A stretch of 64,000 nt of DNA. Source: an uncultured bacterium. GTDB taxonomy: Bacteria > Patescibacteriota > Doudnabacteria > UBA920. This document shows positions 4,772-63,932 of this stretch, in pieces. The stretch lies in assembly GCA_963749445.1 (NCBI GenBank), contig CAVVMJ010000007.1, forward strand, positions 9,971 to 73,970, given 5' to 3'. The notes under the pieces are model-generated. The model made no database searches. It saw nothing but the letters and a program-made list of their open reading frames with translations, and was not told the origin of the DNA. Both the position numbers and the translations under genes were made by a program. Every line of letters starts with the position of its first letter. Positions within the stretch are counted from its first letter, which is position 1.

Positions 4772-4896
4772 TGAGAGACAGGATCCCGTGGCCTCGATCG
4801 ACAATTGACAGTAATGATTGCCCGACGAGGTGTAGGGAACCGACTTGGACAGGAGAGAAAAACAAATAATTAAGCAATTATTTCTCTCCCGTCCGT

Positions 4897-4998
4897 TTTA
4901 AAAGCCGTCATAGATTAACCTTATCATTCTCCCCCAAATCATGAGGAGATACCCCGCCGAAGGCGGAACAGAGAGGTTAAACTATGGCGGCTTTTAAA
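4897..4998. other. compound stem-loop element (long rod plus two internal hairpins), candidate structured RNA
   Basis: TTTAAAAGCCGTCATAG (4897-4913) pairs with CTATGGCGGCTTTTAAA (4982-4998): 17 bp, with one G-U if read on +. TTAACCT (4915-4921) pairs with AGGTTAA (4974-4980). Inner hairpins are TCTCC/GGAGA (4928-4932 / 4945-4949) and CCGCC-GAA-GGCGG (4954-4966). Confidence 0.4.
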
Positions 4999-5000
4999 TT

Positions 5001-5027
5001 GGCCACATTCCATTTTGGAATGTGGCC
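5001..5027. terminator. hairpin between convergent genes
   Basis: GGCCACATTCC-ATTTT-GGAATGTGGCC, a perfect 11-bp stem between the + operon end (4771) and the minus pilin gene end (5061). No clean U-tract on either strand. Confidence 0.4.
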
Positions 5028-5060: not shown

Positions 5061-5765
5061 TTAATTAGTTGTCTGGGTTGTAGTGCCCCGCTGTAAAATG
5101 TCGGAGGTCGTTAAGGTGGAGGTAATAATCGTAACAATGGAGTAAGCCAAAATTACCACTACCAAACCGACAATCGCGTTAATCAAAGCTTTTTTGCCTT
5201 TTTCCGACTGCTCCTCATTGCCCGCGGACGTAATGTACCAAAACCCGCCGACAATTAACGCGACCACCGCTATCAATCCGGAAAGAATCAATAAATACTT
5301 TATAACGACAAAAATCAAATCCACCAAGGTTCCCGCGCCTGCCGGGCTGCCGGCAGTATAAGTATTTGCCGGTACGCAAAAGCCGTTGATTTGCACCAGT
5401 CGGCTGTCGCCGCAAGGGCCACTCACCGTGGAAGGGATGGTTGGATTTAAGTTCACTCCTCCGCTATTTTGATACGCAGTACAAACCGGATCGTTCGGGT
5501 AGCTGTTGCAACAAGCTAACCCGGTTAAGCCCGAAGAGGCGCAGTCAACTTGCTTTGGCCCGACAATTCCGCCGGCAACGCAGGCACTTCCTGAATAAGT
5601 GCATCCCACTGTATTTGCGCACTGGATCGGATCAGCAATACCGGTACAATTATCGGCTTTAGCCAACAAAGGCCCACATGCCAAAAAACTAAAGGCCAAA
5701 GCAAAAACTGCAAAAAACACAAGTCCTGTCAGTTTATCAAATTGCAATTTGCTATTTTTTTTCAT
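5061..5765 (-). CDS. TrbC/VirB2-like (T4SS-pilin family) membrane protein with Cys-rich ectodomain
   Basis: Signal/anchor LTGLVFFAVFALAFSFLA, a Cys-rich N-terminal region, then the family core GGFWYITSAGNEEQSEKGKKALINAIVGLVVVILAY (two TM helices around a charged loop). Confidence 0.8.
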   Translation of the reverse strand: MKKNSKLQFDKLTGLVFFAVFALAFSFLACGPLLAKADNCTGIADPIQCANTVGCTYSGSACVAGGIVGPKQVDCASSGLTGLACCNSYPNDPVCTAYQNSGGVNLNPTIPSTVSGPCGDSRLVQINGFCVPANTYTAGSPAGAGTLVDLIFVVIKYLLILSGLIAVVALIVGGFWYITSAGNEEQSEKGKKALINAIVGLVVVILAYSIVTIITSTLTTSDILQRGTTTQTTN

Positions 5766-5774
5766 CGCGAAAAT

Positions 5775-6173
5775 TTAAACCCCGAGCCCGCCGGTAATGG
5801 TATTTTCAATGACCGTAATAATTGTATAAGCCAAAATAATAATCACAATGCCGATAATGGCATTGATTAAAGTTTTTTTGCCTTTTTCCGACTGCTCCTC
5901 GTTGCCGGACGCGGTAATGTAATAGTACCCGCCGATAATAATGAACAGCACGGCAATGGCGCCGGCAAACAGCAGCATCAGCTTAATGACATCATAAATC
6001 AAATGCGGCAAATCCGGCTCCTGGGACAGCCCGCCGATGCCGAACAAATCCCTTAAACCGCCTATGCCGGTCAGCCCCTGGCCGACCGCGCTGGTCTGGG
6101 CAAAAACCATAGCCGGCAAAAATAGCAAAGCGGAAGATATCCAGGCAAATATTTTTTTGACTGTTTGTTTCAT
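5775..6173 (-). CDS. TrbC/VirB2-like (T4SS-pilin family) membrane protein, short form
   Basis: Signal IFAWISSALLFLPAMVFA; core GGYYYITASGNEEQSEKGKKTLINAIIGIVIIILAY. Confidence 0.8.
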   Translation of the reverse strand: MKQTVKKIFAWISSALLFLPAMVFAQTSAVGQGLTGIGGLRDLFGIGGLSQEPDLPHLIYDVIKLMLLFAGAIAVLFIIIGGYYYITASGNEEQSEKGKKTLINAIIGIVIIILAYTIITVIENTITGGLGV

Positions 6174-6235
6174 AAGATTGTGCTTCTAATTATTAAAAGT
6201 TAATTAAACACCAATCAGAATGTCGGAATGTCGAA

Positions 6236-6298
6236 TTAATCGGAGGGGTCATTTCCAAAATTTTTCCAATTTGTTATTAACCGATTAATTTGTTCAGA
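6236..6298 (-). pseudogene. remnant of a four-helix-bundle (Avd / 23S rRNA IVS protein-like) gene, C-terminal about 20 codons only
   Basis: Minus-strand reading EQINRLITNWKNFGNDPSD* matches the C-terminus KQINRLITNWKNFRSDNSD* of the gene at 7966..8350. The adjacent non-coding stretch 6303-6350 matches 8362-8410. Confidence 0.6.
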
Positions 6299-6448
6299 AA
6301 CTAAGACCAATCTTTATTGCCTGTATACGTCCAACTACCCGACCTCCGATATTCTGATTTATCCGATTATTCCGACTTCTGATTCCAAACTCAGGGGCAG
6401 AACCAGTTCCGCCCGAGAGCCCGGAGCCGAAATTTTCGGCCGACCGTT

Positions 6449-6542
6449 TAGTGTCATTGCGAGGAGGCCGGGGCTTTGTCCGGCCGACGCGGCAATCCCT
6501 TCTTTTGATAAGATTGCTTCGGCTGCTACTGCAATGACACTA
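6449..6542. repeat. palindromic intergenic element (TAGTGTCATTGCGAGGAG...GCAATGACACTA)
   Basis: Terminal inverted repeats TAGTGTCATTGC / GCAATGACACTA. The internal GCGGCAATCCC...GATTGCTTCGGC motif is shared with the GAAATTGCGAGG family copies. Confidence 0.6.
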
Positions 6543-6548
6543 AATTTT

Positions 6549-6941
6549 TTAGCTGGATGACTTGGAAACCAAACCGGCCACCACGTTAACGATTACGTAG
6601 GACAAAAGAATAATGACAATACCGATAATGGCGTTAATGGCCGTGTTCTTGCCTTTTTCCGCGGTTTCCTCATTGCCGGCGGAGGTAATGTACCAGAAGC
6701 CGCCAATGATTAAGAACAACACGGCAATACCAAAGGCGATCCCTAGGAGCCAATTGATGATATTTTTAATCAACGCGTTAGCATCGGTAGTGCCGCAGTT
6801 TAATCCGGTTCCGGAGCAGTTAGGAGCGGTCAGCTGCGCCTGTCCAAAATGCAATGGGACAAACACAAAAATCGCCACCAACACCAGCTCAGCGACCACT
6901 AACCAATTGATTTTCTTGATTATTTGTTTCAAGCTGTTCAC
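6549..6941 (-). CDS. TrbC/VirB2-like (T4SS-pilin family) membrane protein, short form
   Basis: Signal WLVVAELVLVAIFVFVPLHFGQA; core GGFWYITSAGNEETAEKGKNTAINAIIGIVIILLSY. Confidence 0.8.
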   Translation of the reverse strand: MNSLKQIIKKINWLVVAELVLVAIFVFVPLHFGQAQLTAPNCSGTGLNCGTTDANALIKNIINWLLGIAFGIAVLFLIIGGFWYITSAGNEETAEKGKNTAINAIIGIVIILLSYVIVNVVAGLVSKSSS

Positions 6942-7061
6942 CCCCTCTCGTTTCCCTTTCCCTCTCCCTCGGGGAGAGGGCAGGGTGAGGGTTAATTTGC
7001 TGACATTATTATACTACGATTCCTAATTTTTGGCCATCTCTATCTTTTTGGCACACGGTTG

Positions 7062-7946
7062 TCATCTCGGGCTCGGCCCAGGCGTAGGATAGGTTAAATT
7101 CTTATTGGTGGCTTGGCCGCAAACAAAAGTTTGCACCTCCTGCCCGGGCTGTATGGGTTTCTGGGAAGCCATGGCCACGGCCCAGCCGCTTGCGTTTTGC
7201 GTATAGTTTGATTGCATATAATCCGCGCCGTCAACTTTTACGGTAAAAGAGATAGGACTTACATCGCCACATATCATCGCAATCTGTGCCAATAAATCTC
7301 TTTCGCCAGTAGAAATTGTGGAATTCACTAACAGGCCGGGATTTTTGGGCGTAATGACAATATTGTCCCCCAAATAATTTTTATTGGTGCTCCTAGCATT
7401 ACTGACATCCTGTAAACTGATGCCCGCGAACATCGGGTTGGAATAAGCATTGCCTCCTTGCGTACCCGCGACCGCCGGATTGGTGTTGGTATTAGCCGAC
7501 GGATTAGTTACTGCCGGGGTATTGCCATTGCCGGTACTGCCCCCGGTCAACCCGCTGGTTAGCAAATTAACCGTGATGCGGACTATGGCATAAGCCATAA
7601 TAATTACGACCAAACCGATAATCGCGCTGGTAATGGCCTTGCGGCCTTTTTCGGATTGCTCCTCGTTGCCCGCGGCCGTCAGGTACCAAAAACCGCCCAA
7701 AATTATGAACACTACGGCCACCAAGGCGGCAAATTCCAGCAATAACTGGATAACATTGCCCACGGCCTGCTGGGGCGTACATAGTTTGGGGAGGCCTTCA
7801 ATGGTATTTACCGGTTTGCCGTTAACGGTAATTTGAAACTGGCCAAAAAACTTGTTGCAATCAAATTGCGCCGACGCCGGCATGGCCAACAGCCAGCTGA
7901 AAAGGATTATCACCAGAAAAAATTGAAGCTTATGCGTTTTCTTCAT
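7062..7946 (-). CDS. TrbC/VirB2-like pilin-family protein with about 150-aa C-terminal extension
   Basis: Signal LQFFLVIILFSWLLAMPASA; core GGFWYLTAAGNEEQSEKGRKAITSAIIGLVVIIMAY. Followed by a Gly/Asn/Thr linker and a C-terminal domain (…ISFTVKVDGADYMQSNYTQNASGW…). Confidence 0.8.
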   Translation of the reverse strand: MKKTHKLQFFLVIILFSWLLAMPASAQFDCNKFFGQFQITVNGKPVNTIEGLPKLCTPQQAVGNVIQLLLEFAALVAVVFIILGGFWYLTAAGNEEQSEKGRKAITSAIIGLVVIIMAYAIVRITVNLLTSGLTGGSTGNGNTPAVTNPSANTNTNPAVAGTQGGNAYSNPMFAGISLQDVSNARSTNKNYLGDNIVITPKNPGLLVNSTISTGERDLLAQIAMICGDVSPISFTVKVDGADYMQSNYTQNASGWAVAMASQKPIQPGQEVQTFVCGQATNKNLTYPTPGPSPR

Positions 7947-7965
7947 AATTTTTCGGAAAATCGGA

Positions 7966-8350
7966 TTAATCGGAATTATCGGATCTGAAATTCTTCCAAT
8001 TGGTTATTAGTCGATTAATTTGCTTGGATACTATTTTATAGTGCTTGATTAGTGCTTCGCAGGTTTCGGGTTTAATATTCGGGAAACCAATGAGTTTAAT
8101 TTGTCTTAGATGGGTTATAACTTCATCCGAAGATCCCAACGCAATCCGCAAGTAACGCTTGAATTCTTTTTCCGAATTTCGTTTGGCAAAACCTTCGGTA
8201 ATTTGCGCCGGAACTCCTTTTGCCGCGCCCGTTAACTGGTCTTTTGTCCGAAACTCATTTTTTGGCAACAAATCTGCTAACCGGTAAATCGGCCTAATCA
8301 ACTTCATTGACCTTCTGATAAACCTCTAAATCCTCAACATCCTTTATCAT
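7966..8350 (-). pseudogene. four-helix-bundle protein (Avd / 23S rRNA intervening-sequence protein family), frameshifted near N-terminus
   Basis: Track ORF 7966..8307 reads ...GAAKGVPAQITEGFAKRNSEKEFKRYLRIALGSSDEVITHL. The family N-terminus MIKDVEDLEVYQK is encoded from ATG 8350 in another frame. One extra nt near 8308-8314 separates YQK from SMKLIRPIYRLA. Confidence 0.7.
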
Positions 8351-8394
8351 AATTAAAAAATTAAGACCGGTTTTTATTGCCTATATCCATCCAA

Positions 8395-9978
8395 CTATCC
8401 GACCTCCGATTTATCCGACATTCCGACATTCCGACATTCCGACATTCCGACATTCCGATTTATCCGAATCATACTCGTACTCTGGCTGACGTTTTGGATT
8501 TGCGTCTGCAAAATATATTGGACAATGGCAATGATGCTAAAGGACAGCAAAGCAATGGCTAAACCCAAAATGGCCCAGGTGATGGTCTTGCGCGCGGCCG
8601 TGACCGCCTCTTCGTTGCCCTGGGACATGACGTAGCGGAAGCCACCGATGACTATAAAAGCCACGGACCACAAAGCAATGACGCCCAAAAAGGCGCGCAT
8701 TATCAACAGCAAAGTCGCAGTCAAAGAATCCACGGGCAGGGGGTTATATAAACAATTGTTGGCATCGGGACCGGTACAATTAGCGGTGGAAGGAGTGCCG
8801 GCGGCAGAACATGTCCCTCCCGTGGCGGCTGAACATATCTGCCCGGAACTGCAAGTCCCCTGCTGCCCGGGACCTCCGGTACAAGAAGCACCAGGCGCGA
8901 CAGCCGCGGTCGGACTTACAGTAATATTAAAAGTAGTCGGTCCAACCCCATTTAACGCTGTGGTTCCGTCAGCGGCCACCGGAGTCGCGACAATTGAATT
9001 AACGCCGCTAATATTAAAACCGGAGTTTGCGTCCAAGGTAAAATTTTGGCTCCATTGTTTTGAACTGTCAAGTTTTACATCTTGATTACCCGCGTGCACC
9101 AATAAAATGCCGCCACTGGGCATATTGGTGGCAGAAATTGTTATGGTAGTTCCGGGCGCATAAGTACTATTGGCCGCAGGCGGCGATAAAACAACCGTCG
9201 GCGCGTTACCACTTGCGCCTGTGGCCTGAGTTAAAGTATAAGTTTGATCATAAATTCCCTTGCCGCTACTATCAGTCAGGACAAATCTTAACTTGTTATC
9301 CCCATTGCTAATAAATCCATTTGTGGCATTTACCGCTATTTGGTTGCCGCCTGAGTATATTGCAACAAAGTGATTATTATCGTTGACATAAATGTTTCCC
9401 TGCGCACCGGGCGGAAAATCTGTATAAGTAATTTTTAAGGTATCGCCAATTTTAGCGGTAGGCGGTGAAACTGTAAAGTTAAACCCCTCTCCTAAAGGAT
9501 TATTAGAAACATTTAGCTGTTTTCCCCAATTTTTTGTATCTCCCAAGTCACCCAAACTTGAATGAACATCCAAATAGTAAGGAAAAATGTAATCTGACCC
9601 TGACTTGGTAACATCACTCCAACGGGAAAAATTTGATAAATTAAAAGGGCAGTCAATATTAACATTGTTAGGAACAGGCGGGCTGACCTGGCACCTGGCC
9701 AAATACCAAGGGCTACCACTGATAGGGGCAATAAAATCAAACTCCATGATATTATTGGCACTACAGCCGTTTGTATTAACTATGGTATTAAATTTTGCCG
9801 AATCGCCTTTATAAATTCTGGTTGGAACTGCCTCCATAGAGGTAATTTGCACCTGGCAAATTCCTGCGGCTATTGCAGATTTTATGAATCCACGCCCAAA
9901 AACCCCGGCCAGCATCAATAAAATTATGACGCTGCTTTTTAGTGCGCTTAATATTTTATTGTACTTGTTCTGCGTCAT
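8395..9978 (-). CDS. TrbC/VirB2-like pilin-family protein with about 400-aa N-terminal ectodomain
   Basis: Signal SSVIILLMLAGVFG, a beta-rich repeated ectodomain and a Cys/Gly/Thr linker (CTGGPGQQGTCSSGQICSAATGGTCSAAG). Core is GGFRYVMSQGNEEAVTAARKTITWAILGLAIALLSF. The last about 25 codons run into the CCGACATT tandem repeat. Confidence 0.75.
   Translation of the reverse strand: MTQNKYNKILSALKSSVIILLMLAGVFGRGFIKSAIAAGICQVQITSMEAVPTRIYKGDSAKFNTIVNTNGCSANNIMEFDFIAPISGSPWYLARCQVSPPVPNNVNIDCPFNLSNFSRWSDVTKSGSDYIFPYYLDVHSSLGDLGDTKNWGKQLNVSNNPLGEGFNFTVSPPTAKIGDTLKITYTDFPPGAQGNIYVNDNNHFVAIYSGGNQIAVNATNGFISNGDNKLRFVLTDSSGKGIYDQTYTLTQATGASGNAPTVVLSPPAANSTYAPGTTITISATNMPSGGILLVHAGNQDVKLDSSKQWSQNFTLDANSGFNISGVNSIVATPVAADGTTALNGVGPTTFNITVSPTAAVAPGASCTGGPGQQGTCSSGQICSAATGGTCSAAGTPSTANCTGPDANNCLYNPLPVDSLTATLLLIMRAFLGVIALWSVAFIVIGGFRYVMSQGNEEAVTAARKTITWAILGLAIALLSFSIIAIVQYILQTQIQNVSQSTSMIRINRNVGMSECRNVGMSDKSEVG
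8415..8460. repeat. tandem octamer (CCGACATT) x5 plus partial copy
   Basis: ccgacatt repeated five times from 8415 to 8454, then ccgatt. It forms the 3' tail of the 527-aa pilin ORF. Confidence 0.9.
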
Positions 9979-9990
9979 ACTTTTTGATTT

Positions 9991-10485
9991 TTACTTCCCT
10001 GCCGGCGCGATGCCTTCTTCCACGTTATAGGAATTTGGGACGCAGGTATAACTGCTCGGGTTGGTCAAAGTAATGTAAGTCCACGGACTGGCAAAATCAA
10101 TTTTGCATTTGGACATTAATAGAATATTAACTGCGGTATTGACGAACATATACGCGGCCACGACCACAAAAAATCCTATGAATACCTGGGTTAACGCTCC
10201 CTTGTGTTTGGTAATGTCCTCCTCGTTGCCGCTGCTCGCCACCAGCCAAAAAGAATGTTCAACAATCTTGTAAACCGCGTAAAGCCCGGCCATGGCTATC
10301 AGCCAGTTGGTCACCCGCGCCACCCCGTAAAAAGCGTCCAAAACTCCGCAGGGATGATTATCCGTCGGCCCGCTGCCGCCGCAGGGAACTAGTCCAGCGG
10401 CATGGACGAAAAATGGCATAGAAAAAGCTATTGTTATTGTTAAGATTACCGCAACTAAAAGCCTTTTTTGTTTCAAGATAATCAT
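9991..10485 (-). CDS. TrbC/VirB2-like (T4SS-pilin family) membrane protein, divergent member
   Basis: Signal LLVAVILTITIAFSMPFFVHA; core FWLVASSGNEEDITKHKGALTQVFIGFFVVVAAY. First gene of the minus-strand pilin array. Confidence 0.7.
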   Translation of the reverse strand: MIILKQKRLLVAVILTITIAFSMPFFVHAAGLVPCGGSGPTDNHPCGVLDAFYGVARVTNWLIAMAGLYAVYKIVEHSFWLVASSGNEEDITKHKGALTQVFIGFFVVVAAYMFVNTAVNILLMSKCKIDFASPWTYITLTNPSSYTCVPNSYNVEEGIAPAGK

Positions 10486-10542: not shown

Positions 10543-10619
10543 GAAATTGCGAGGGCGTGCATCCGACCGAAGCAATCCCCAAAAAATAACCGGATTGCTC
10601 CGGCCACCCTCGCAATTTC
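10543..10619. repeat. palindromic element, GAAATTGCGAGG...CCTCGCAATTTC family
   Basis: GAAATTGCGAGGG...GAAGCAATCCCC...GGATTGCTCCGG...CCCTCGCAATTTC. Same termini and core as the copies at 28170, 43436 and 48538. Confidence 0.75.
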
Positions 10620-13041: not shown

Positions 13042-13122
13042 CTACTAAATACGAAAGTGGCTAAAAATACTAAACTTATGGTTTATAAGTTTAGTATTTT
13101 TAGATAATTTAGTATTTAGTAA
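13042..13122. terminator. long nested hairpin built from ACTAAAT-type words
   Basis: A perfect 19-bp stem: CTAAAAATACTAAACTTAT (13061-13079) with ATAAGTTTAGTATTTTTAG (13085-13103). It is nested in outer arms TACTAAATAC / GTATTTAGTA. Lies downstream of comM and upstream of galU. Confidence 0.5.
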
Positions 13123-25276: not shown

Positions 25277-25406
25277 CTTTGTTGTTTCCCTTCTCCCCCT
25301 CTGGGGGAGATGTCCCGCCTTTGGCGGGACAGAGAGGGTGCATTAAATAAAATTAATCGATTATAATTTCTCGCCTCCCTATTTTACCATTTTTTTACCC
25401 GCCTTA

Positions 25407-28169: not shown

Positions 28170-28265
28170 GAATTTGCGAGGAGCCAGGGCTTTATCTGGC
28201 GACGAAGCAATCCCAAAATTTGAATGGGATTGCCGCGCCCCTCTCTGCATCGGGGCTCGCAAATT
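28170..28265. repeat. palindromic element, GAAATTGCGAGG family
   Basis: GAATTTGCGAGGAGCC...GGCGACGAAGCAATCCC...GGGATTGCCGCGCCCCTCTCTGCATCGGGGCTCGCAAATTC. Near-identical to 48538..48637. Confidence 0.8.
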
Positions 28266-28279
28266 CTGTTATTTGATAT

Positions 28280-34323: not shown

Positions 34324-34483
34324 GATTATTTGCGGAGCATCCCCTCCTATCTTAAGCTCTTTATTAGCACATAGGAGGGGTGTCCCGACTTGTCGGGACG
34401 GGGTGGTATCGTCATAATTTTCTACCACCTCCCCCGCCTGCGGCGGGTACTCCTCCTATAATAGGAGGAGGGGCTCCGCGGTT
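34324..34483. repeat. composite GC-rich palindromic block bounded by GCGGAGC...GCTCCGCGGTT
   Basis: Contains CCCCTCCTAT...ATAGGAGGGG, GTCCCGACTTGTCGGGAC, CCGCCTGCGGCGG and CTCCTCC-TATAATA-GGAGGAG, then GGGCTCCGCGGTT. The same tail occurs at 55112-55124 and 60274-60286. Confidence 0.65.
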
Positions 34484-43326: not shown

Positions 43327-43401
43327 TGGTCTCCTCGGCAGGAATCGAACCTACATCGTCTCGTTAGGAGTGAGATGCTCTATCCATTGAGCTACGAGGA
43401 G
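43327..43401 (-). tRNA. tRNA-Arg(CCU), CCA encoded
   Basis: Minus-strand read: CTCCTCG TA GCTC AATGGATA GAGC A TCTCA CTCCTAA CGAGA CGAT GTAGG TTCGATT CCTGC CGAGGAG A CCA. Has a C1:G72 pair and one A-C mismatch at 31:39. Confidence 0.8.
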
Positions 43402-43435
43402 ATACAAAATTCAAATTGCAAAACTTAAAACAAGC

Positions 43436-43550
43436 TGAAATTGCGAGCCCCGATGCAGAGGGGCGCGGCAATCCCATAAAATTGACGGGATTGCTTCGCC
43501 CGCCTTCGCTGAAGCTTCGGCGGATAAATCGGATGCACTCCTCGCAATTT
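43436..43550. repeat. palindromic element, GAAATTGCGAGG family, inverted orientation with internal insertion
   Basis: GAAATTGCGAGCCCCGATGCAGAGGGGCGCGGCAATCCC...GGGATTGCTTCGCCC...CCTCGCAATTTC. Confidence 0.8.
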
Positions 43551-47806: not shown

Positions 47807-47880
47807 GGGCCTGTAGTAAAGTGGTATTACGCGGCATTCGCATTGCCGAGGCGGGGGTTCGATTCCCCCCAGGTCCACCA
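47807..47880 (+). tRNA. tRNA-Ala(CGC), CCA encoded
   Basis: GGGCCTG TA GTAAAGTGGTATTAC G CGGCA TTCGCAT TGCCG AGGC GGGGG TTCGATT CCCCC CAGGTCC A CCA. Has G3:U70. Acceptor and T arms are identical to the tRNA-Ala at 42633. Confidence 0.9.
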
Positions 47881-48537: not shown

Positions 48538-48637
48538 GAAATTGCGAGGAGCCGAGGGCTTTTTATCTGGCGACGAAGCAATCCCGATACTTAACTGGGA
48601 TTGCCGCGCCCCTCGCTGCATCGGGGCTCGCAATTTC
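48538..48637. repeat. palindromic element, GAAATTGCGAGG family
   Basis: GAAATTGCGAGGAGCCGAGGGC...GGCGACGAAGCAATCCCGATACTTAACTGGGATTGCCGCGCCCCTCGCTGCATCGGGGCTCGCAATTTC. Confidence 0.85.
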
Positions 48638-48692
48638 CGGGCATTTGGGATTTTGCAATTAAAGACTGACTCTACCTATCAAGGAACATTAG

Positions 48693-55033: not shown

Positions 55034-55122
55034 AACAGTTAATTAGATGGCAACCAATACACCTCATCTGTCGCTCCGATGCAGTCGCGACATCTTCCCC
55101 TCCAGGGGAAGAGGCTCCGCGG

Positions 55123-56694
55123 TTAAACCCCGCGCAATAATTCTATTTTGGCGCCAATCTTGCGCAGGCGCGAGACGAGGTCTTCGTAGCCGCGGTTGAT
55201 GGAGTAGGCGTTGCGGAGGATGGAGGTGCCTTTGGCCGCCAGCATGGCGACCAGAATGTTGGCGGCCGGGCGCAGGGCGGGAGGACAAATGACTTCTGCG
55301 CCGCGGAGCTCGGTCGGCCCTTCAATGTATACCCGATGGGCATCGGCCAAAATTATATTGGCGCGCAGCTTGGTTAATTCCATATAGTAAATTGCGCGGT
55401 TTTCGTAAACCCAGTCGTGGATTAAAGTTGTGCCCTTGGCCTGCGTGGCAATGGGCACAAAAAACGGCAAATTGTCTATATTTATGCCCAATCCGCCGGG
55501 CAACGGGTGCAATTTTTCCTCCAGCGCCTTGAGTTTGGAAGGAAAAGCTTGCACATCGGCCAAATTGGTTATGCCGTTATAACTTTTGTACTGTTTGATA
55601 ATTTTATAGCGGAAACCCATTTTTTCCAGCTTTAAAAGTTCAAGCTCCAAAAAATCAATCGGGCAACGCTCAATCGTCAGCGAAGAATTCGTCGTGGCCG
55701 CGATGGCCAAAAACAGCATTGACTCAATCGGGTCTTCGCTTAAATAATAACTGACGGTTTGGTTGATATGCGGTTTGCCGTGGACAACAAGAGTGGAAGA
55801 ACCGACCCCGTCTATTTTTACGCCCAGGGCAATAAGGAAATGGCACAAATCCCGCACCATATAATTGGCGCTGGCCATTTTGATGATGGTAATGCCGGGC
55901 AAGCGCGCGGCAGCCATTAAGGCATTTTCCGTAACCGTATCACCGGTTTCATAAAGTACGATTTCGGAGGTTTTCCCGCCGGAGGCGGATCCGCCTTTGG
56001 CGGAAAGTCCAACCGATGTGACCTGGTAATTATCATGGGTGGTTTTAACTTTAACGCCCAGTTTTTCCAAAGCGAACAAATGCGGCCGCACCGTGCGCGC
56101 GCCAAGGCGGCAGCCGCCGGGGTGGGGAAGGGCAAAATTTTGCAGCAGATGAACCAGCGGCCCAAGCAGCATCAGCACGCTGCGCGTTTTGGCCGCGGAC
56201 TCCACGTCCATAGCCTTTAAATTCAGCCTTTTTGGCGGAATAATTTGCAAATCCCGGTCTTTCCATTTCACATCCACGCCAATGCTTAAAAGAACTTCCA
56301 CCATCCGATAGACCTCTTCAATCTTGGGAACTCTTTTGAGTATGGTCTTGCCCGAATTGAGCAGGCTCGCGCACAGCAGAGCCACGGCCGCGTTTTTAGA
56401 GGTGTTGGTGGTTACTTTGCCGGAAAGTTTAAACCCACCTTCAATTTTAAAATTAACGCTTTGGCCGCCCAAAGTAATAATTTCCCGCCCCAGCACGGCG
56501 CTGATTTTAGCCAGGGTTTCCGTTGTTAAATTCTGCAAACCGTTTTCCATGCGGGCCACGGCCGATTGGGAAGTTTTCAGCAGCACGGCAAACTCCGCCT
56601 GGGTCAAGCCCTTTTGTTCGCGCGTCTGGCTAATAAACCGGCCGATTCTGGCCTGTTCTTGGGCGATATTTTTAGTTAAAGCCACATTTGGCAT
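55123..56694 (-). CDS. murA: UDP-N-acetylglucosamine 1-carboxyvinyltransferase with N-terminal XRE-type HTH domain
   Basis: N-terminal FISQTREQKGLTQAEFAVLLKTSQSAVARMENGLQN (XRE HTH). Then the MurA body: KIEGGFKLSGKVTTNTSKNAAVALLCASLL...GGCRLGARTVRPH...IIKMASANY...IHDWVYENR. 523 aa versus about 420 for typical MurA. Confidence 0.9.
   Translation of the reverse strand: MPNVALTKNIAQEQARIGRFISQTREQKGLTQAEFAVLLKTSQSAVARMENGLQNLTTETLAKISAVLGREIITLGGQSVNFKIEGGFKLSGKVTTNTSKNAAVALLCASLLNSGKTILKRVPKIEEVYRMVEVLLSIGVDVKWKDRDLQIIPPKRLNLKAMDVESAAKTRSVLMLLGPLVHLLQNFALPHPGGCRLGARTVRPHLFALEKLGVKVKTTHDNYQVTSVGLSAKGGSASGGKTSEIVLYETGDTVTENALMAAARLPGITIIKMASANYMVRDLCHFLIALGVKIDGVGSSTLVVHGKPHINQTVSYYLSEDPIESMLFLAIAATTNSSLTIERCPIDFLELELLKLEKMGFRYKIIKQYKSYNGITNLADVQAFPSKLKALEEKLHPLPGGLGINIDNLPFFVPIATQAKGTTLIHDWVYENRAIYYMELTKLRANIILADAHRVYIEGPTELRGAEVICPPALRPAANILVAMLAAKGTSILRNAYSINRGYEDLVSRLRKIGAKIELLRGV
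55976..56003. repeat. 28-nt GGATCC-centred mini-palindrome inside murA
   Basis: CCGCCGGAGGCGGATCCGCCTTTGGCGG. In the gene sense it encodes SAKGGSASGGK. A near-identical copy lies at 63182-63209. Confidence 0.8.
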
Positions 56695-57227: not shown

Positions 57228-57371
57228 AAATAGTAGCGTTCCCAAATATACAAATCAACACAAATATACAAATTACTGACAGTGCTATAGATTTGTATAT
57301 TTGTTAAAATTTGTATATTTGCGATTACTACAATTATAGCATTTGAAAGGATTTGAACGCAAGCCGCCGGA

Positions 57372-58562: not shown

Positions 58563-58662
58563 ATAGCGATACTAATATACGAATGCATACGAATGATACT
58601 AATAATACGAATTCGTATTATTCGTTTCATTAGTATCAATTAGTATACTGGTATCTTTTAAT

Positions 58663-60197: not shown

Positions 60198-60329
60198 TCA
60201 ATGGGTTAAACATTATTTTCCCTCCAACCACCCCGTCTCGCGAAGCTCACCACCCCTCCTCAGCAAGGAGGGGAAGCTCCGCGGTTCAGCGACATATCAG
60301 CGTCCCTATCAGCGACGTATCAGCGGAAT

Positions 60330-62517: not shown

Positions 62518-62880
62518 ATGAGACCAGTAAAAAAAGACACCAACCGCATTGCCAAGGTCAATTCGCTAATTAGGCGCGAGTTGGGACCGATTTTGTTAGT
62601 GTTTTTACAGGGGATGGAGGGATTAGTGACCATTACCAAAGCCGACACCAGCAAGGATATGAAGTGGTGCAAGGTTTGGATTTCCATTTTGGGCGGAGAT
62701 GATGATAAAATTTTAGGTTATCTTGCAAAAAATATTTACGACATCCAGGGCGAGCTGAATAAATATTTTTTCACTAAAATTATCCCGCGGATTTCCTTTC
62801 ACCTGGATACCAGCCCAAGGTACGCGCAGCATATTGATGAAGTGATACGGAAGATACACGATGAAGAAGAGACAATTTAA
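62518..62880 (+). CDS. rbfA: ribosome-binding factor A
   Basis: RIAKVNSLIRRELGPIL...VTITKADTSKDMKWCKVWISIL...IPRISFHLDTS. Canonical position after infB. Confidence 0.9.
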   Translation: MRPVKKDTNRIAKVNSLIRRELGPILLVFLQGMEGLVTITKADTSKDMKWCKVWISILGGDDDKILGYLAKNIYDIQGELNKYFFTKIIPRISFHLDTSPRYAQHIDEVIRKIHDEEETI

Positions 62881-62946
62881 GAATTACGGATTGCGGATTA
62901 CGAATTCGTAATGCGCAATCCGTAATTAATAATTCCTATTAAGTTA

Positions 62947-63932
62947 ATGCAGCAAGATTTTATTAAAGCCAAACAACTAATTGACCAATCCCAAAACATC
63001 CTCCTGACAATGCATGAGCGGATGGACGGGGATGACGGCGGCAGCGTGCTGGCCGTTTTTCATCATTTGGCCAAAAACGGCAAGCAGGTCACCTGCGCCA
63101 TCAAAAAGGGCGTACCGCTCGCTTTGCGTTTTCTGCCCGGCAGCGAAAAAATCGCCGATGACATCAGCCATCAAAATTTTTCCGCCGAAGGCGGATCCGC
63201 CTCTGGCGGAGACTTTGATCTACTGATAATGTTCGGATGCTCTGCCAAAGACCGCTGCGGCAGCGAAGATATTATCAATTTGAACGTGCCTACGATTAAT
63301 TTTGACCACCATCCCGACAACTCCCATTTTGCCGACGTGAACGCCGTGGATCCGGCCAAATCTTCCGTGGCGGAGATAATTTATGACTTTTTCCGCTTCC
63401 ACAACTGGCCCATAACCCCCGAAGTCGCCACTTGTCTTTTGACCGGAATTATTACCGACACAGGCTCATTTATGCACGCCAACACCAAAAACTCTACGCT
63501 CAAAACCGCGGGCGAGCTGATGCGCAAAGGCGCCCAAACCAACCTTATCATTAAACACACTTCCCTGGGCAAAAATCCCCAAATTTTAAAAGCCTGGGAC
63601 AGGCTTTGGAAAACTCGCATTACGATAAAAAACACAAAATTATTTACGCTGTAATGACGGGAGAAGATTTACTCAATTTTAAAAACCTGCCGCAGGCGGC
63701 CTTTGAAGGATTCGTGGAAACGTTGAATACTTACCCGGATGCAAAGTTCGCCATGTTTTTGCGGCAGGACGGCGACGTAATTAAAGGCAGCCTGCGCTCC
63801 GACCCTTATAAAAATATTGATGTTTCCCAAATCGCCAAAGCCTTTGGCGGCGGCGGCCACAAACTGGCGGCGGGGTTTTCGCTGGCGGGAAAACTGACTA
63901 AGGACGAGGCGGGAAAATGGCGCGTAATTTAA
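62947..63932 (+). CDS. DHH-family phosphoesterase (NrnA-like), interrupted by a 1-nt frameshift as sequenced
   Basis: The N-terminal part has HERMDGDDGGSVLAV, FDHHPDN and GIITDTGSF. The C-terminal part (track 63606..63932) has SLRSDPYKNIDVSQIAKAFGGGGHKLAAG. Joined as QILKAWGQALENSHYDKK by adding one G at 63596-63598. Confidence 0.85.
63182..63209. repeat. 28-nt GGATCC-centred mini-palindrome inside the nrnA-like gene
   Basis: CCGCCGAAGGCGGATCCGCCTCTGGCGG encodes SAEGGSASGGD. It differs at 2 of 28 positions from the murA copy. Confidence 0.8.

What the first reader, a model, noticed from the sequence alone, without database searches (positions are those of the whole stretch)
55976..56003. 28-nt GGATCC-centred mini-palindrome translated as GGSASGG inside two unrelated essential genes
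CCGCC(G/A)(G/A)AGGCGGATCCGCC(T)(T/C)TGGCGG occurs inside murA (55976-56003, minus-strand gene; peptide SAKGGSASGGK). It also occurs inside the nrnA-like DHH gene (63182-63209, + strand gene; peptide SAEGGSASGGD). The two copies differ at 2 of 28 positions and are read in the same phase relative to the palindrome, although the genes are on opposite strands. Half of the motif (CCGCCGAAGGCGG) also appears in the structured element at 4954-4966. Identical nucleotide strings in two unrelated proteins argue for insertion of a tiny mobile or templated element rather than convergent protein evolution.
Basis: seen in the sequence. Interest (0 to 1): 0.65.

Follow-up and report, generated by a model that had tools for sequence, protein, structure and literature searches.

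The report
Tiny palindromic insert inside essential genes
The two 28-base strings are copies of a very short (30-36 base) palindromic repeat found in many uncultured bacterial phyla; it has landed inside essential genes such as murA, rpoB, rpoC and dnaE, where it is read as a harmless Gly/Ser/Ala loop.

Summary
CCGCCNNNGGCGGATCCGCCNNNGGCGG occurs exactly twice in the window, in murA and in an nrnA-like gene (0 expected by chance).

- **Insertions.** The closest orthologues (80-86% identical) lack 30 nt in murA and 36 nt in nrnA.
- **Family.** A capped scan of one genome per species found at least 119 loci, all MAGs. They are about half Patescibacteria, plus Omnitrophota, PVC phyla, Ignavibacteria, Chloroflexota and others. 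Plasmids and phages of cultured hosts have none.
- **Consensus.** TTTT-CCGCC-NRA-GGCGG-AT-CCGCC-TYN-GGCGG-AAAA, which is two tandem 15-nt hairpin units.
- **Phase.** 54 of 59 confidently intragenic copies use the one phase that reads (F)SAxGGSAxGG(K).
- **Hosts.** RpoB, RpoC, DnaE, DnaG, UvrB, Mfd, PheT, CysRS, DnaJ and others, at loops, linkers or termini.
- **Target duplication.** Flanking direct repeats with a 36-37-nt period are enriched, which hints at a duplication of about 6-7 bp.
- **Rejected.** There is no sign of a GGATCC restriction link, no terminator geometry and no neighbouring transposase.

Best reading: a non-autonomous, REP/MITE/RPE-like selfish palindrome, filtered by selection to one reading phase. 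How it moves is unknown. I found no description of it in the literature I could search.

The parts
55975..56004 (-). 30-nt core of copy 1 (sense strand TCCGCCAAAGGCGGATCCGCCTCCGGCGGG), two tandem 15-nt hairpin units, read as SAKGGSASGG inside murA. The 28-mer of the finding is 55976-56003.
   Evidence: It is a 30-nt insertion relative to P0002 and P0003 (L126, L127).
55972..56006 (-). Extended palindrome of copy 1, including the T-run and A-run flanks (sense CTTT...GAAAA).
   Evidence: Family flank profile: position -1 is T in 97%, -3 in 83%, and -2 and -4 in about 60%.
55123..56694 (-). Host gene 1: an HTH(XRE)-MurA fusion of 523 aa. The insert occupies residues 231-240, in a low-confidence loop between two beta strands.
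   Evidence: AlphaFold2 model: pLDDT is below 50 for residues 234-240, between strands 222-227 and 242-246.
63181..63210 (+). 30-nt core of copy 2 (TCCGCCGAAGGCGGATCCGCCTCTGGCGGA), read as SAEGGSASGG inside the nrnA-like gene. The 28-mer of the finding is 63182-63209.
   Evidence: It is a 36-nt insertion relative to L003 and L004. An identical 45-nt block occurs in L001, whose gene is otherwise 69% identical.
63175..63180 (+). AATTTT, a possible left copy of a 6-nt target duplication (imperfect, 4 of 6 matching).
   Evidence: Family-wide, direct repeats with a 36-37-nt period are enriched. Inferred, not shown.
63211..63216 (+). GACTTT, a possible right copy of the 6-nt target duplication.
   Evidence: Inferred.
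62947..63932 (+). Host gene 2: an NrnA-like DHH/DHHA1 phosphoesterase, split into two ORFs (62947-63654 and 63606-63932) by a 1-nt deletion in a G run.
4954..4966 (.). It is part of a different repeat (4945-4976, second copy 25306-25337) inside a strongly folding intergenic region. Its relation to the double-hairpin family is uncertain.

Best explanation
The two strings are copies of a dispersed, non-autonomous palindromic repeat. Its core is 30 nt, made of two tandem 15-nt hairpin units TCCGCC-NNN-GGCGGA, usually bounded by a T-run and an A-run to give 34-36 nt.

**How it most likely works.**
- Copies are added to new sites within a genome and, over longer times, reach unrelated phyla.
- I commit to mobilisation in trans by an unidentified enzyme that recognises the hairpin arms and makes a staggered cut at A...TTT targets, leaving a duplication of about 6-7 bp.
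- Insertion itself is blind to genes. In these compact genomes most insertions fall within coding sequence.
- Selection then removes every copy except those that (i) add a multiple of three bases, (ii) lie in the one phase that reads SAxGGSAxGG, small flexible residues, on either strand, and (iii) sit in surface loops, interdomain linkers or protein termini.
- The murA and nrnA copies are two such survivors, and both are young, because relatives 80-86% identical lack them.

**Shown:** the family, the insertions, the phase filter and the permissive sites.

**Inferred:** the mobility mechanism, the target duplication and horizontal spread.
For: **Not chance.**
- 2 matches in the window against 0 in shuffles.
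My own estimate of the chance expectation is at most a few.

**Insertions relative to close orthologues.**
- murA +30 nt.
- nrnA +36 nt.
- rpoC in L073: 39 nt replace 15 nt, relative to a gene 88% identical at the nucleotide level.
- NrnA carries the element at two different sites in different lineages (P0125, P0156). It is present in 3 of the 120 listed homologues (the window's own protein, P0125 and P0156) and in 0 of 80 metagenome loci.

**Phase filter.**
- 54 of 59 confident intragenic copies are in the SAxGGSAxGG phase. The other two phases (PPxADPPxAE and RxRRIRxRR) are seen almost only in short ORFs, that is, between genes.
- The orientation of the asymmetric loops follows the gene in coding copies (27 against 6) but not the neighbouring genes in non-coding copies (15 against 16). 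This points to selection on amino acids.

**Permissive sites.**
- The MurA insert lies in a low-pLDDT beta-hairpin loop, where P0044 carries an unrelated 27-aa insert.
- Other sites are the DnaJ region between the J domain and the C-terminal domain, the E2 lipoyl linker and C-terminal tails.
- Hosts include RpoB, RpoC, DnaE, DnaG, UvrB, Mfd, PheT, CysRS, a class II Asp/Lys/Asn-type tRNA synthetase and HsdR.

**A family at the DNA level.**
- Copies found by protein similarity alone have the consensus codons.
- Conserved T and A flanks.
- Loop variation is mostly by transitions.
- Two degenerate copies carry compensatory stem changes.
- The element is one module of a mosaic intergenic repeat in a Kiritimatiellae MAG.

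**Target duplication.**
- Abutting direct repeats of 6 nt or more occur in 9.5% of copies against 1.7% in permuted controls.
- The period peaks at 37, with z of about 4 in both coding and non-coding copies, and has a secondary peak at 36.
Against: - No transposase or other gene recurs within about 4 kb of copies, and none turned up in the 20 window ORFs scanned, all within 1069-30403.
- Only about 10-17% of copies show a clear target duplication. Its modal period (37) is not a multiple of three, although intact genes carry such copies, for example L074.
- Insert sizes differ between cases: +30, +36 and a 39-for-15 replacement. That fits an imprecise or templated process at least as well as a classical transposase.
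- The T and A flanks are conserved more strongly than a decaying duplication would predict.
- Apparent stem conservation is partly an effect of how copies were found, because the scan required exact stems. Only about 17 copies were found independently of that requirement.
Confidence: 0.7

Rival explanations
1. Templated or short-patch spread without a dedicated transposase. A nuclease-resistant hairpin fragment, taken up from the environment or copied from another locus, is incorporated at replication forks or breaks by microhomology at A/T runs. This resembles template switching or short-patch illegitimate recombination. The family is the same as in the best explanation; only the means of spread differs.
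For: - Insert sizes vary: +30, +36 and a replacement of 15 nt by 39 nt in rpoC.
- A/T-run junctions are suited to microhomology.
- No associated enzyme gene was found.
- Distribution across phyla that share habitats fits environmental DNA as the vehicle.
- The window and L001 share an identical 45-nt block in genes otherwise 69% identical.
Against: - The direct-repeat period is sharply peaked at 36-37. That is more typical of a defined staggered cut.
- No donor flanks are co-transferred: apart from orthologous copies and one composite repeat, flank similarity between copies stays near the tail of the background distribution, the L002/L044 pair (16 of 20) being borderline.
- Nothing has been tested experimentally.
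Confidence: 0.2
2. The palindrome is a functional cis-element kept by selection at the DNA or RNA level, for example the binding site of a conserved dimeric protein, a recombination site or a structured RNA. Intragenic copies would then be tolerated or useful sites rather than junk.
For: - Stems are invariant while loops vary.
- Loop position 3 (A in the first loop, T in the second) is 94% conserved, which gives a 14-bp central palindrome AGGCGGATCCGCCT.
- Two degenerate copies have compensatory stem changes.
- Copies ascertained by protein similarity keep the consensus codons.
- The 11-6-11 layout resembles recombinase sites (my own knowledge).
- Folding is stable: -12 to -20 kcal/mol as DNA and -22 to -28 as RNA.
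Against: - Density is low (2 per 64 kb here), and there is no positional rule relative to genes: flanking genes are co-directional, divergent or convergent.
- Orthologues do well without the element.
- There is no terminator geometry, because the T-run precedes the hairpin.
- No Rfam family covers it.
- Most of the apparent stem conservation comes from how copies were found.
Confidence: 0.1
3. Independent convergent evolution of Gly/Ser/Ala linkers, or a laboratory or assembly artefact such as a BamHI linker or GS-linker cloning scar.
For: GGSASGG and GGCGGATCCGCC appear in the literature only as synthetic linkers and primers.
Against: - Copies share identical synonymous codons in unrelated genes and genomes.
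- There are many non-coding copies.
- The element is present in MAGs from dozens of independent studies, assemblers and very long (0.7-1.6 Mb) contigs.
- It is in frame inside conserved genes whose domains continue on both sides.
- It is absent from plasmids and phages of cultured hosts.
Confidence: 0.02

Closest known systems
Rickettsia palindromic elements (RPE)
   Same: Palindromic repeats that insert in frame into unrelated, often essential, protein-coding genes and are translated as extra surface segments. They also occur between genes (review PMC10969869).
   Different: RPEs are about 100-150 bp, fall into ten families and are confined to Rickettsia. This element is 30-36 nt, encodes 10-12 residues, and occurs in many phyla of uncultured bacteria. 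No sequence relationship was tested.
REP / BIME / REPIN elements mobilised by RAYT (IS200/IS605-like Y1) transposases
   Same: Short (20-40 nt) GC-rich imperfect palindromes, paired into double units and combined into mosaic intergenic repeats (compare). They lack coding capacity of their own.
   Different: REPs are extragenic by definition, carry a conserved GTAG head, occur in hundreds of copies, are specific to a lineage, and leave no target duplication (my own knowledge). Here about 45% of copies are intragenic, the head is a T-run, density is low, and no RAYT was seen.
Prokaryotic MITEs (for example Correia/NEMIS, ERIC, Chunjie)
   Same: Non-autonomous, with terminal inverted repeats and (suggested here) a target-site duplication. 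Some make occasional in-frame fusions with host ORFs (PMC10969869).
   Different: The MITEs named in that review are far longer (about 150-235 bp; to my knowledge described MITEs are not shorter than about 50 bp) and can usually be tied to a parent IS. This element is only two abutting 15-nt arms, and no parent was found.
Mitochondrial GC clusters, double-hairpin elements and 'byps' of fungi; coding palindromes of Nematomorpha mtDNA
   Same: Very short GC-rich hairpin elements that colonise AT-richer genomes, including coding regions (PMC6649704 abstract; the rest from my own knowledge).
   Different: Those are in organelles. Byps are skipped by the ribosome rather than translated. No phase-specific Gly/Ser/Ala reading and no cross-phylum bacterial distribution are known for them.
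[quoted passage not shown]
   Same: Coding sequence with dyad symmetry, scattered patchily across distant microbes and thought to spread by HGT (PMC2996958).
   Different: PARCELs are 25-residue units in tandem arrays within accessory membrane proteins of unknown function. This element is a solitary 10-12-residue insert in housekeeping enzymes.
HIP1 of cyanobacteria and DNA uptake sequences (DUS/USS)
   Same: Short palindromic or paired motifs, found in both coding and non-coding DNA with a preferred reading phase. HIP1 is also centred on GATC (my own knowledge).
   Different: Those are 8-12 nt, occur about once per kb, arise by point substitution rather than by a 30-36-nt insertion, and are specific to a lineage.

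Membership tests
Rickettsia palindromic elements | Palindromic repeat inserted in frame in protein-coding genes | tested here: met
Rickettsia palindromic elements | About 100-150 bp, homologous to one of the RPE consensus families, host genus Rickettsia | tested here: not met
   The element is 30-36 nt. None of the 119 record titles names Rickettsia; the named hosts are Patescibacteria, Omnitrophota, PVC phyla and others, and 11 titles give no taxon. Sequence comparison with RPE consensus sequences was not done.
REP/REPIN-RAYT | Short imperfect palindrome able to form a hairpin, often in inverted doublets | tested here: met
REP/REPIN-RAYT | Extragenic location | tested here: not met
   59 of 130 copies are confidently intragenic.
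REP/REPIN-RAYT | Conserved GTAG (or similar) tetranucleotide at the 5' foot | tested here: not met
   The flank consensus is TTTT, not GTAG.
REP/REPIN-RAYT | A cognate RAYT (Y1 HUH transposase) gene in the same genome | not testable with these tools
   None was found within about 4 kb of copies or in the 20 window ORFs scanned. Whole genomes could not be searched.
MITE (non-autonomous DDE transposon) | Terminal inverted repeats | tested here: met
   The two 15-nt halves are inverted repeats of each other. This is trivially true of any palindrome.
MITE (non-autonomous DDE transposon) | Target-site duplication of fixed length | tested here: inconclusive
   Direct repeats of 6 nt or more in 9.5% of copies against 1.7% in controls. 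The period is 36-37, z about 4. Most copies show none, and insert sizes vary.
MITE (non-autonomous DDE transposon) | Related autonomous IS with the same termini | not testable with these tools
   Not seen in about 1.2 Mb of loci. A genome-wide search was not possible.
Intrinsic (rho-independent) terminator | GC-rich hairpin followed by a T-run on the transcribed strand | tested here: not met
   The T-run precedes the hairpins and the A-run follows them, on both strands. There is no excess between convergent genes.
CRISPR repeat | Regularly spaced array of repeats separated by unique spacers | tested here: not met
   Copies are solitary. The few pairs within one locus lie about 0.8-3.4 kb apart.
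Restriction-modification-linked GGATCC motif | Avoidance or enrichment of GGATCC in the genome | tested here: not met
   12 observed against 11.2 expected.
DNA uptake sequence | About one copy per kb, arising by substitution, specific to a lineage | tested here: not met
   2 copies in 64 kb, insertions of 30-36 nt, cross-phylum distribution.

The most novel reading that the evidence does not exclude
This is the smallest self-propagating DNA element yet seen in bacteria. A 30-nt double hairpin is actively moved between sites and across at least six to eight phyla of mostly uncultured, often ultra-small bacteria. The mover would be a still unknown hairpin-specific enzyme, or uptake of hairpin DNA from the environment. 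The stems are kept intact by selection at the nucleotide level, and the element repeatedly adds flexible loops to core enzymes such as RNA polymerase, DNA polymerase III and MurA.
Probability: 0.3. Interest if true: 0.85.

Novelty: new variant of a known kind. Interest (0 to 1): 0.7.

Why it matters
- **A new case of coding-sequence colonisation.** If confirmed, palindromic selfish DNA invading coding sequence would no longer be known mainly from Rickettsia and organelles. It would extend to the Candidate Phyla Radiation, Omnitrophota and PVC bacteria, with an element several-fold shorter than the MITEs and RPEs named in the review I read (about 150-235 bp).
- **Annotation.** It gives a sequence tag, (F)SAxGGSAxGG(K), that explains otherwise puzzling lineage-specific loops in highly conserved proteins. 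It can also mislead alignments and phylogenies of marker genes such as rpoB and rpoC.
- **Gene flow.** It is a marker of recent DNA exchange among uncultured lineages that share habitats.
- **Testable questions.** What is the minimal substrate for DNA mobilisation, and which enzyme moves it?

Tried and rejected
- **GGATCC restriction-modification link.** GGATCC is neither avoided nor enriched, at 12 against 11.2 expected.
- **Terminator.** The T-run is on the wrong side, and there is no excess between convergent genes.
- **Linked mobilising gene.** All-against-all clustering of 2202 ORFs from the loci found no family in more than 6 of 125 sequences (124 loci plus the window). No transposase appeared in the 20 window ORFs scanned.
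- **Longer conserved flanks or a larger parent element.** Only orthologous copies and one Kiritimatiellae composite repeat share flanks. The L002/L044 resemblance sits at the tail of the background distribution for AT-rich flanks and may be chance.
- **Bias by replication strand.** Orientation is unrelated to local GC skew, Fisher p 0.28-1.0.
- **More NrnA alleles.** A metagenome search returned 80 loci, none with the element.
- **Exact boundaries from a third filled/empty pair.** In rpoC (88% nt identity) the element replaces 15 nt in a hypervariable loop, so the boundaries stay ambiguous.
- **Triple or other spacer variants.** No three-unit arrays were found. Only two near-variants of the central AT exist (GT, AC).
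- **Literature.** Searches on the sequence, the peptide and general terms found no description.
- **Source record.** An exact-sequence look-up of the window's own MurA found nothing on record.
- **Rfam.** Only four tRNAs in the window.
Full report
**1. The observation**

- Allowing 3 mismatches, CCGCCNNNGGCGGATCCGCCNNNGGCGG matches only these two sites in 64 kb. None of 100 dinucleotide-preserving shuffles gave a match.
- murA lies on the minus strand (55123-56694) and the DHH/NrnA-like ORF on the plus strand (62947-63654).
- Both read the palindrome in the same phase, as SAKGGSASGG and SAEGGSASGG.
- In gene-sense orientation the two copies share 29 of 31 nt (I8).
- The 13-mer at 4954-4966 is real. 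It belongs to another two-copy repeat, at 4945-4976 and 25306-25337, inside a strongly folding intergenic region. I treat it as a different, possibly related, hairpin family.

**2. Both copies are lineage-specific insertions**

The window comes from a Patescibacteria (Doudnabacteria-like) MAG.
- **MurA.** All 19 aligned relatives, including four at 80-82% identity, lack exactly 10 residues. At the DNA level this is 30 nt. None of the other 119 listed homologues contains the motif.
- **NrnA.** The closest relative, P0122 (85% aa, 86% nt), lacks 12 residues, or 36 nt.
- **A shared insert.** P0125, only 68% identical, carries the identical insert at the same site. The two genes are 69% identical overall but 100% identical over a 45-nt block around the insert.
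- **A second site.** P0156 carries SAQGGSASGG at a different site in NrnA.
- **Rarity.** None of 80 further NrnA loci from metagenomes carries the element.
- **A third pair.** In rpoC (L073 against L208, 88% nt identity), 39 nt containing the element replace 15 nt of a hypervariable loop.

**3. It is a large, cross-phylum family**

My own estimate of the chance expectation for 22 fixed bases in 596 Gb is well below one for even base composition and a few at most for GC-rich genomes.

All 119 loci are MAGs. My tally of the record titles:

| Group | Loci |
|---|---|
| Patescibacteria lineages | 62 |
| Omnitrophota | 10 |
| PVC (Kiritimatiellae, Verrucomicrobia, Lentisphaerae, Planctomycetes) | 12 |
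| TPA MAGs labelled Gammaproteobacteria | 12 |
| Ignavibacteria/Bacteroidota | 4 |
| Chloroflexota | 2 |
| Other phyla | 6 |
| Unclassified | 11 |

- Some hits lie on contigs of 0.7-1.6 Mb, and they come from many independent studies and assemblers. This excludes an assembly artefact and simple mis-binning.
- IMG/VR holds two copies. One forms the C-terminus of a reverse-transcriptase ORF.
- Plasmids (7.3 Gb) and phages (2.3 Gb) of cultured hosts have no true match.

**4. Anatomy**

- **Flanks.** Symmetrised flank profiles show T at position -1 in 97% of copies, at -3 in 83%, and at -2 and -4 in about 60%, with background composition beyond that.
- **Consensus.** TTTT-CCGCC-NRA-GGCGG-AT-CCGCC-TYN-GGCGG-AAAA. 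This is two tandem 15-nt units TCCGCC-NNN-GGCGGA, read as (F)SAxGG-SAxGG(K).
- **Loops.** They vary mostly by transitions. The two middle loop positions are non-complementary (A opposite C) in 58% of copies and complementary in 22%. The family therefore has a polarity and is not simply a set of perfect palindromes.
- **Folding.** As DNA, the window's two copies fold into two small hairpins (-12 to -13 kcal/mol), while the perfectly palindromic consensus forms one long hairpin (-20). As RNA all three form one long hairpin with a GAUC loop (-22 to -28).
- **Decay.** In about 1 Mb of loci there are 130 exact copies, 4 with one stem mismatch and 5 with three or four. Two of the degenerate copies carry compensatory stem changes.
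- **Single hairpins.** They are more frequent in motif-bearing loci (28 per 959 kb) than in control loci (1 per 220 kb).
- **Mosaic context.** In a Kiritimatiellae MAG the element is one module of a ~160-nt mosaic intergenic repeat, reminiscent of BIMEs.

**5. Selection filters the coding copies**

- **Phase.** Of 59 copies confidently inside genes, 54 are in the phase that gives SAxGGSAxGG. The other two phases are essentially confined to short ORFs, that is, to intergenic DNA.
- **Residues.**

| Position | Counts among the 54 in-phase copies |
|---|---|
| First x | K 16, E 13, R 7, G 6, Q 4 |
| Second x | S 39, F 9 |

- **Orientation.** The asymmetric loops follow the gene in coding copies (27 against 6) but are random relative to neighbouring genes in non-coding copies (15 against 16). 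The bias therefore reflects amino-acid selection, not the insertion mechanism.
- **Hosts.** RpoC, RpoB, DnaE, PheT, HsdR, ArsA, Mfd, UvrB and DnaG. Also PolX, the E2 acyltransferase (in its lipoyl linker), GH57, a class II Asp/Lys/Asn-type tRNA synthetase, an amylase and a subtilase. Also MraY/WecA-like GT4, CysRS and DnaJ (in the region between the J domain and the C-terminal domain). Domains continue in frame on both sides of the element.
- **Structure.** In the AlphaFold2 model of the window's MurA, the insert is a low-confidence loop (pLDDT below 50 at 234-240) between strands 222-227 and 242-246. This is the same loop in which P0044 has an unrelated 27-residue insert.

**6. How it spreads (inferred)**

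- Direct repeats of 6 nt or more abut the element in 9.5% of copies, against 1.7% in permuted controls.
- The excess identity peaks at a period of 37 nt (z 3.7 in coding copies, 4.0 in non-coding), with a secondary peak at 36.
- Clear cases have the form A...TTT [T-28-A] A...TTT, for example AGGATTTT, AATATTT, ACAATTT and AAAGTCT.
- This suggests a 30-nt core plus a target duplication of about 6-7 bp at AT-rich sites. In the window's nrnA copy, AATTTT and GACTTT flanking the core would be such a duplication, imperfect at 2 of 6 positions.
- Against a classical transposase:
  - most copies show no duplication;
  - the T and A runs are better conserved than a decaying duplication would predict;
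  - the modal period is not a multiple of three, although intact genes carry such copies;
  - insert sizes vary;
  - no enzyme gene is linked.
- A templated or short-patch recombination route therefore remains a serious rival.
- Orientation is unrelated to GC skew, which gives no support to a mechanism specific to one replication strand.

**7. Comparison with what is known**

- **What it works like.** The element behaves like Rickettsia palindromic elements: in-frame colonisation of essential genes (review PMC10969869). It looks like REP/BIME or a minimal MITE, and it recalls the GC clusters of fungal mitochondria.
- **Why it is not a member of those families.** It fails defining features of each:
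  - RPE: length, family homology and host;
  - REP: extragenic location and the GTAG head;
  - MITE: size and a parent IS.
- **What it is not.** It is not a terminator, a CRISPR repeat, an uptake sequence or a motif linked to restriction-modification.
- **Literature.** Searches with the nucleotide string, the peptide and general terms returned only synthetic linkers and primers, plus the analogues named above. Within the library available to me, the family appears undescribed.

**8. Verdict**

- The restriction-site idea is not supported.
- I rate the finding as a new variant of a known kind: palindromic selfish repeats that invade coding sequence.
- It is of clear interest because of its extreme shortness, its presence in core information-processing enzymes and its cross-phylum reach.
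- The means of mobilisation is unresolved.

Noticed in passing
window 63590-63610 (ORFs 62947-63654 and 63606-63932): The nrnA-like gene is split by a frameshift. The window has GGG where the 86%-identical orthologue L003 has GGGG. This is either an assembly error in a homopolymer or a real pseudogene.
   Followed up: partly
window 55123-56694 (-): MurA carries an N-terminal XRE-type helix-turn-helix domain of about 75 residues. All 120 closest homologues, all Patescibacteria-like, share this HTH-MurA fusion.
   Followed up: partly
window 4945-4976 and 25306-25337; 4890-5005: A two-copy repeat GGAGATNNCCCGCCNNNGGCGGNACAGAGAGG. The first copy sits inside a 116-nt region that folds at -51 kcal/mol (z -7.4) with 25-nt outer arms. 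It could be a structured RNA or a nested palindromic repeat. None of the 207 fetched loci has a copy.
   Followed up: partly
window 10568-10605, 28191-28266, 43414-43501, 48562-48660: A four-copy hairpin repeat, CGAAGCAATCCC...GGGATTGC followed by CCCCTC..GCATCGGGGCTCGCAA. Two copies lie next to tRNA genes (43330-43401 and 47807-47877).
   Followed up: no
window 34449-34483, 55090-55124, 60252-60286: A three-copy motif: a variable hairpin followed by the conserved GGCTCCGCGGTT. One copy lies immediately 3' of murA and one 5' of infB. It might be a promoter, terminator or RNA motif.
   Followed up: no
window 13043-13121, 57229-57335, 58568-58655, 62877-62932: Long AT-rich intergenic palindromes (arms of 32-45 nt), mostly built from words such as TACGAAT and ATACTAA.
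   Followed up: no
whole window: GATC is under-represented about two-fold (101 observed, 209 expected from trinucleotides), while GGATCC is at expectation (12 against 11.2).
   Followed up: partly
window 5061-10485: Four paralogous genes with a T4SS-pilin domain (PF18895), interspersed with other ORFs in one cluster. They account for the direct-repeat families D1-D3.
   Followed up: partly
P0044 (MurA); P0161, P0176, P0199 (NrnA); P0336 (RpoC): Other lineage-specific inserts occupy the same protein loops as the element. They are a 27-aa insert in MurA, 18-26-aa inserts next to NrnA site A, and FGGSAVGGK in the RpoC loop, which may be a decayed copy. These loops are hot spots for insertions.
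   Followed up: partly
L100 (Planctomycetia MAG), 680, 944, 3542: One giant ORF (over 1679 aa) holds three copies of the element, two of them with one stem mismatch. It also holds an in-frame stretch 'VILSAAKDL..', which I recognise as the translation of another widespread palindromic repeat (my own knowledge).
   Followed up: partly
L006 384-1820 (-), IMG/VR contig: The element encodes the last residues (…SALGGSASGGK*) of a reverse-transcriptase ORF (RVT_1; PHROG 1423, E 4.5e-98), with a DNA methyltransferase gene nearby. This is a single case and may be coincidence.
   Followed up: partly
L009, L012 (x2), L059, L035: In Kiritimatiellae and Verrucomicrobia MAGs the element has fixed flanks (CATAGGAATTTT ... 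ACAATCCG). In the Kiritimatiellae MAG STD1_155 (L012, L059) it forms the left end of a ~160-nt mosaic repeat made of several other hairpin modules.
   Followed up: partly
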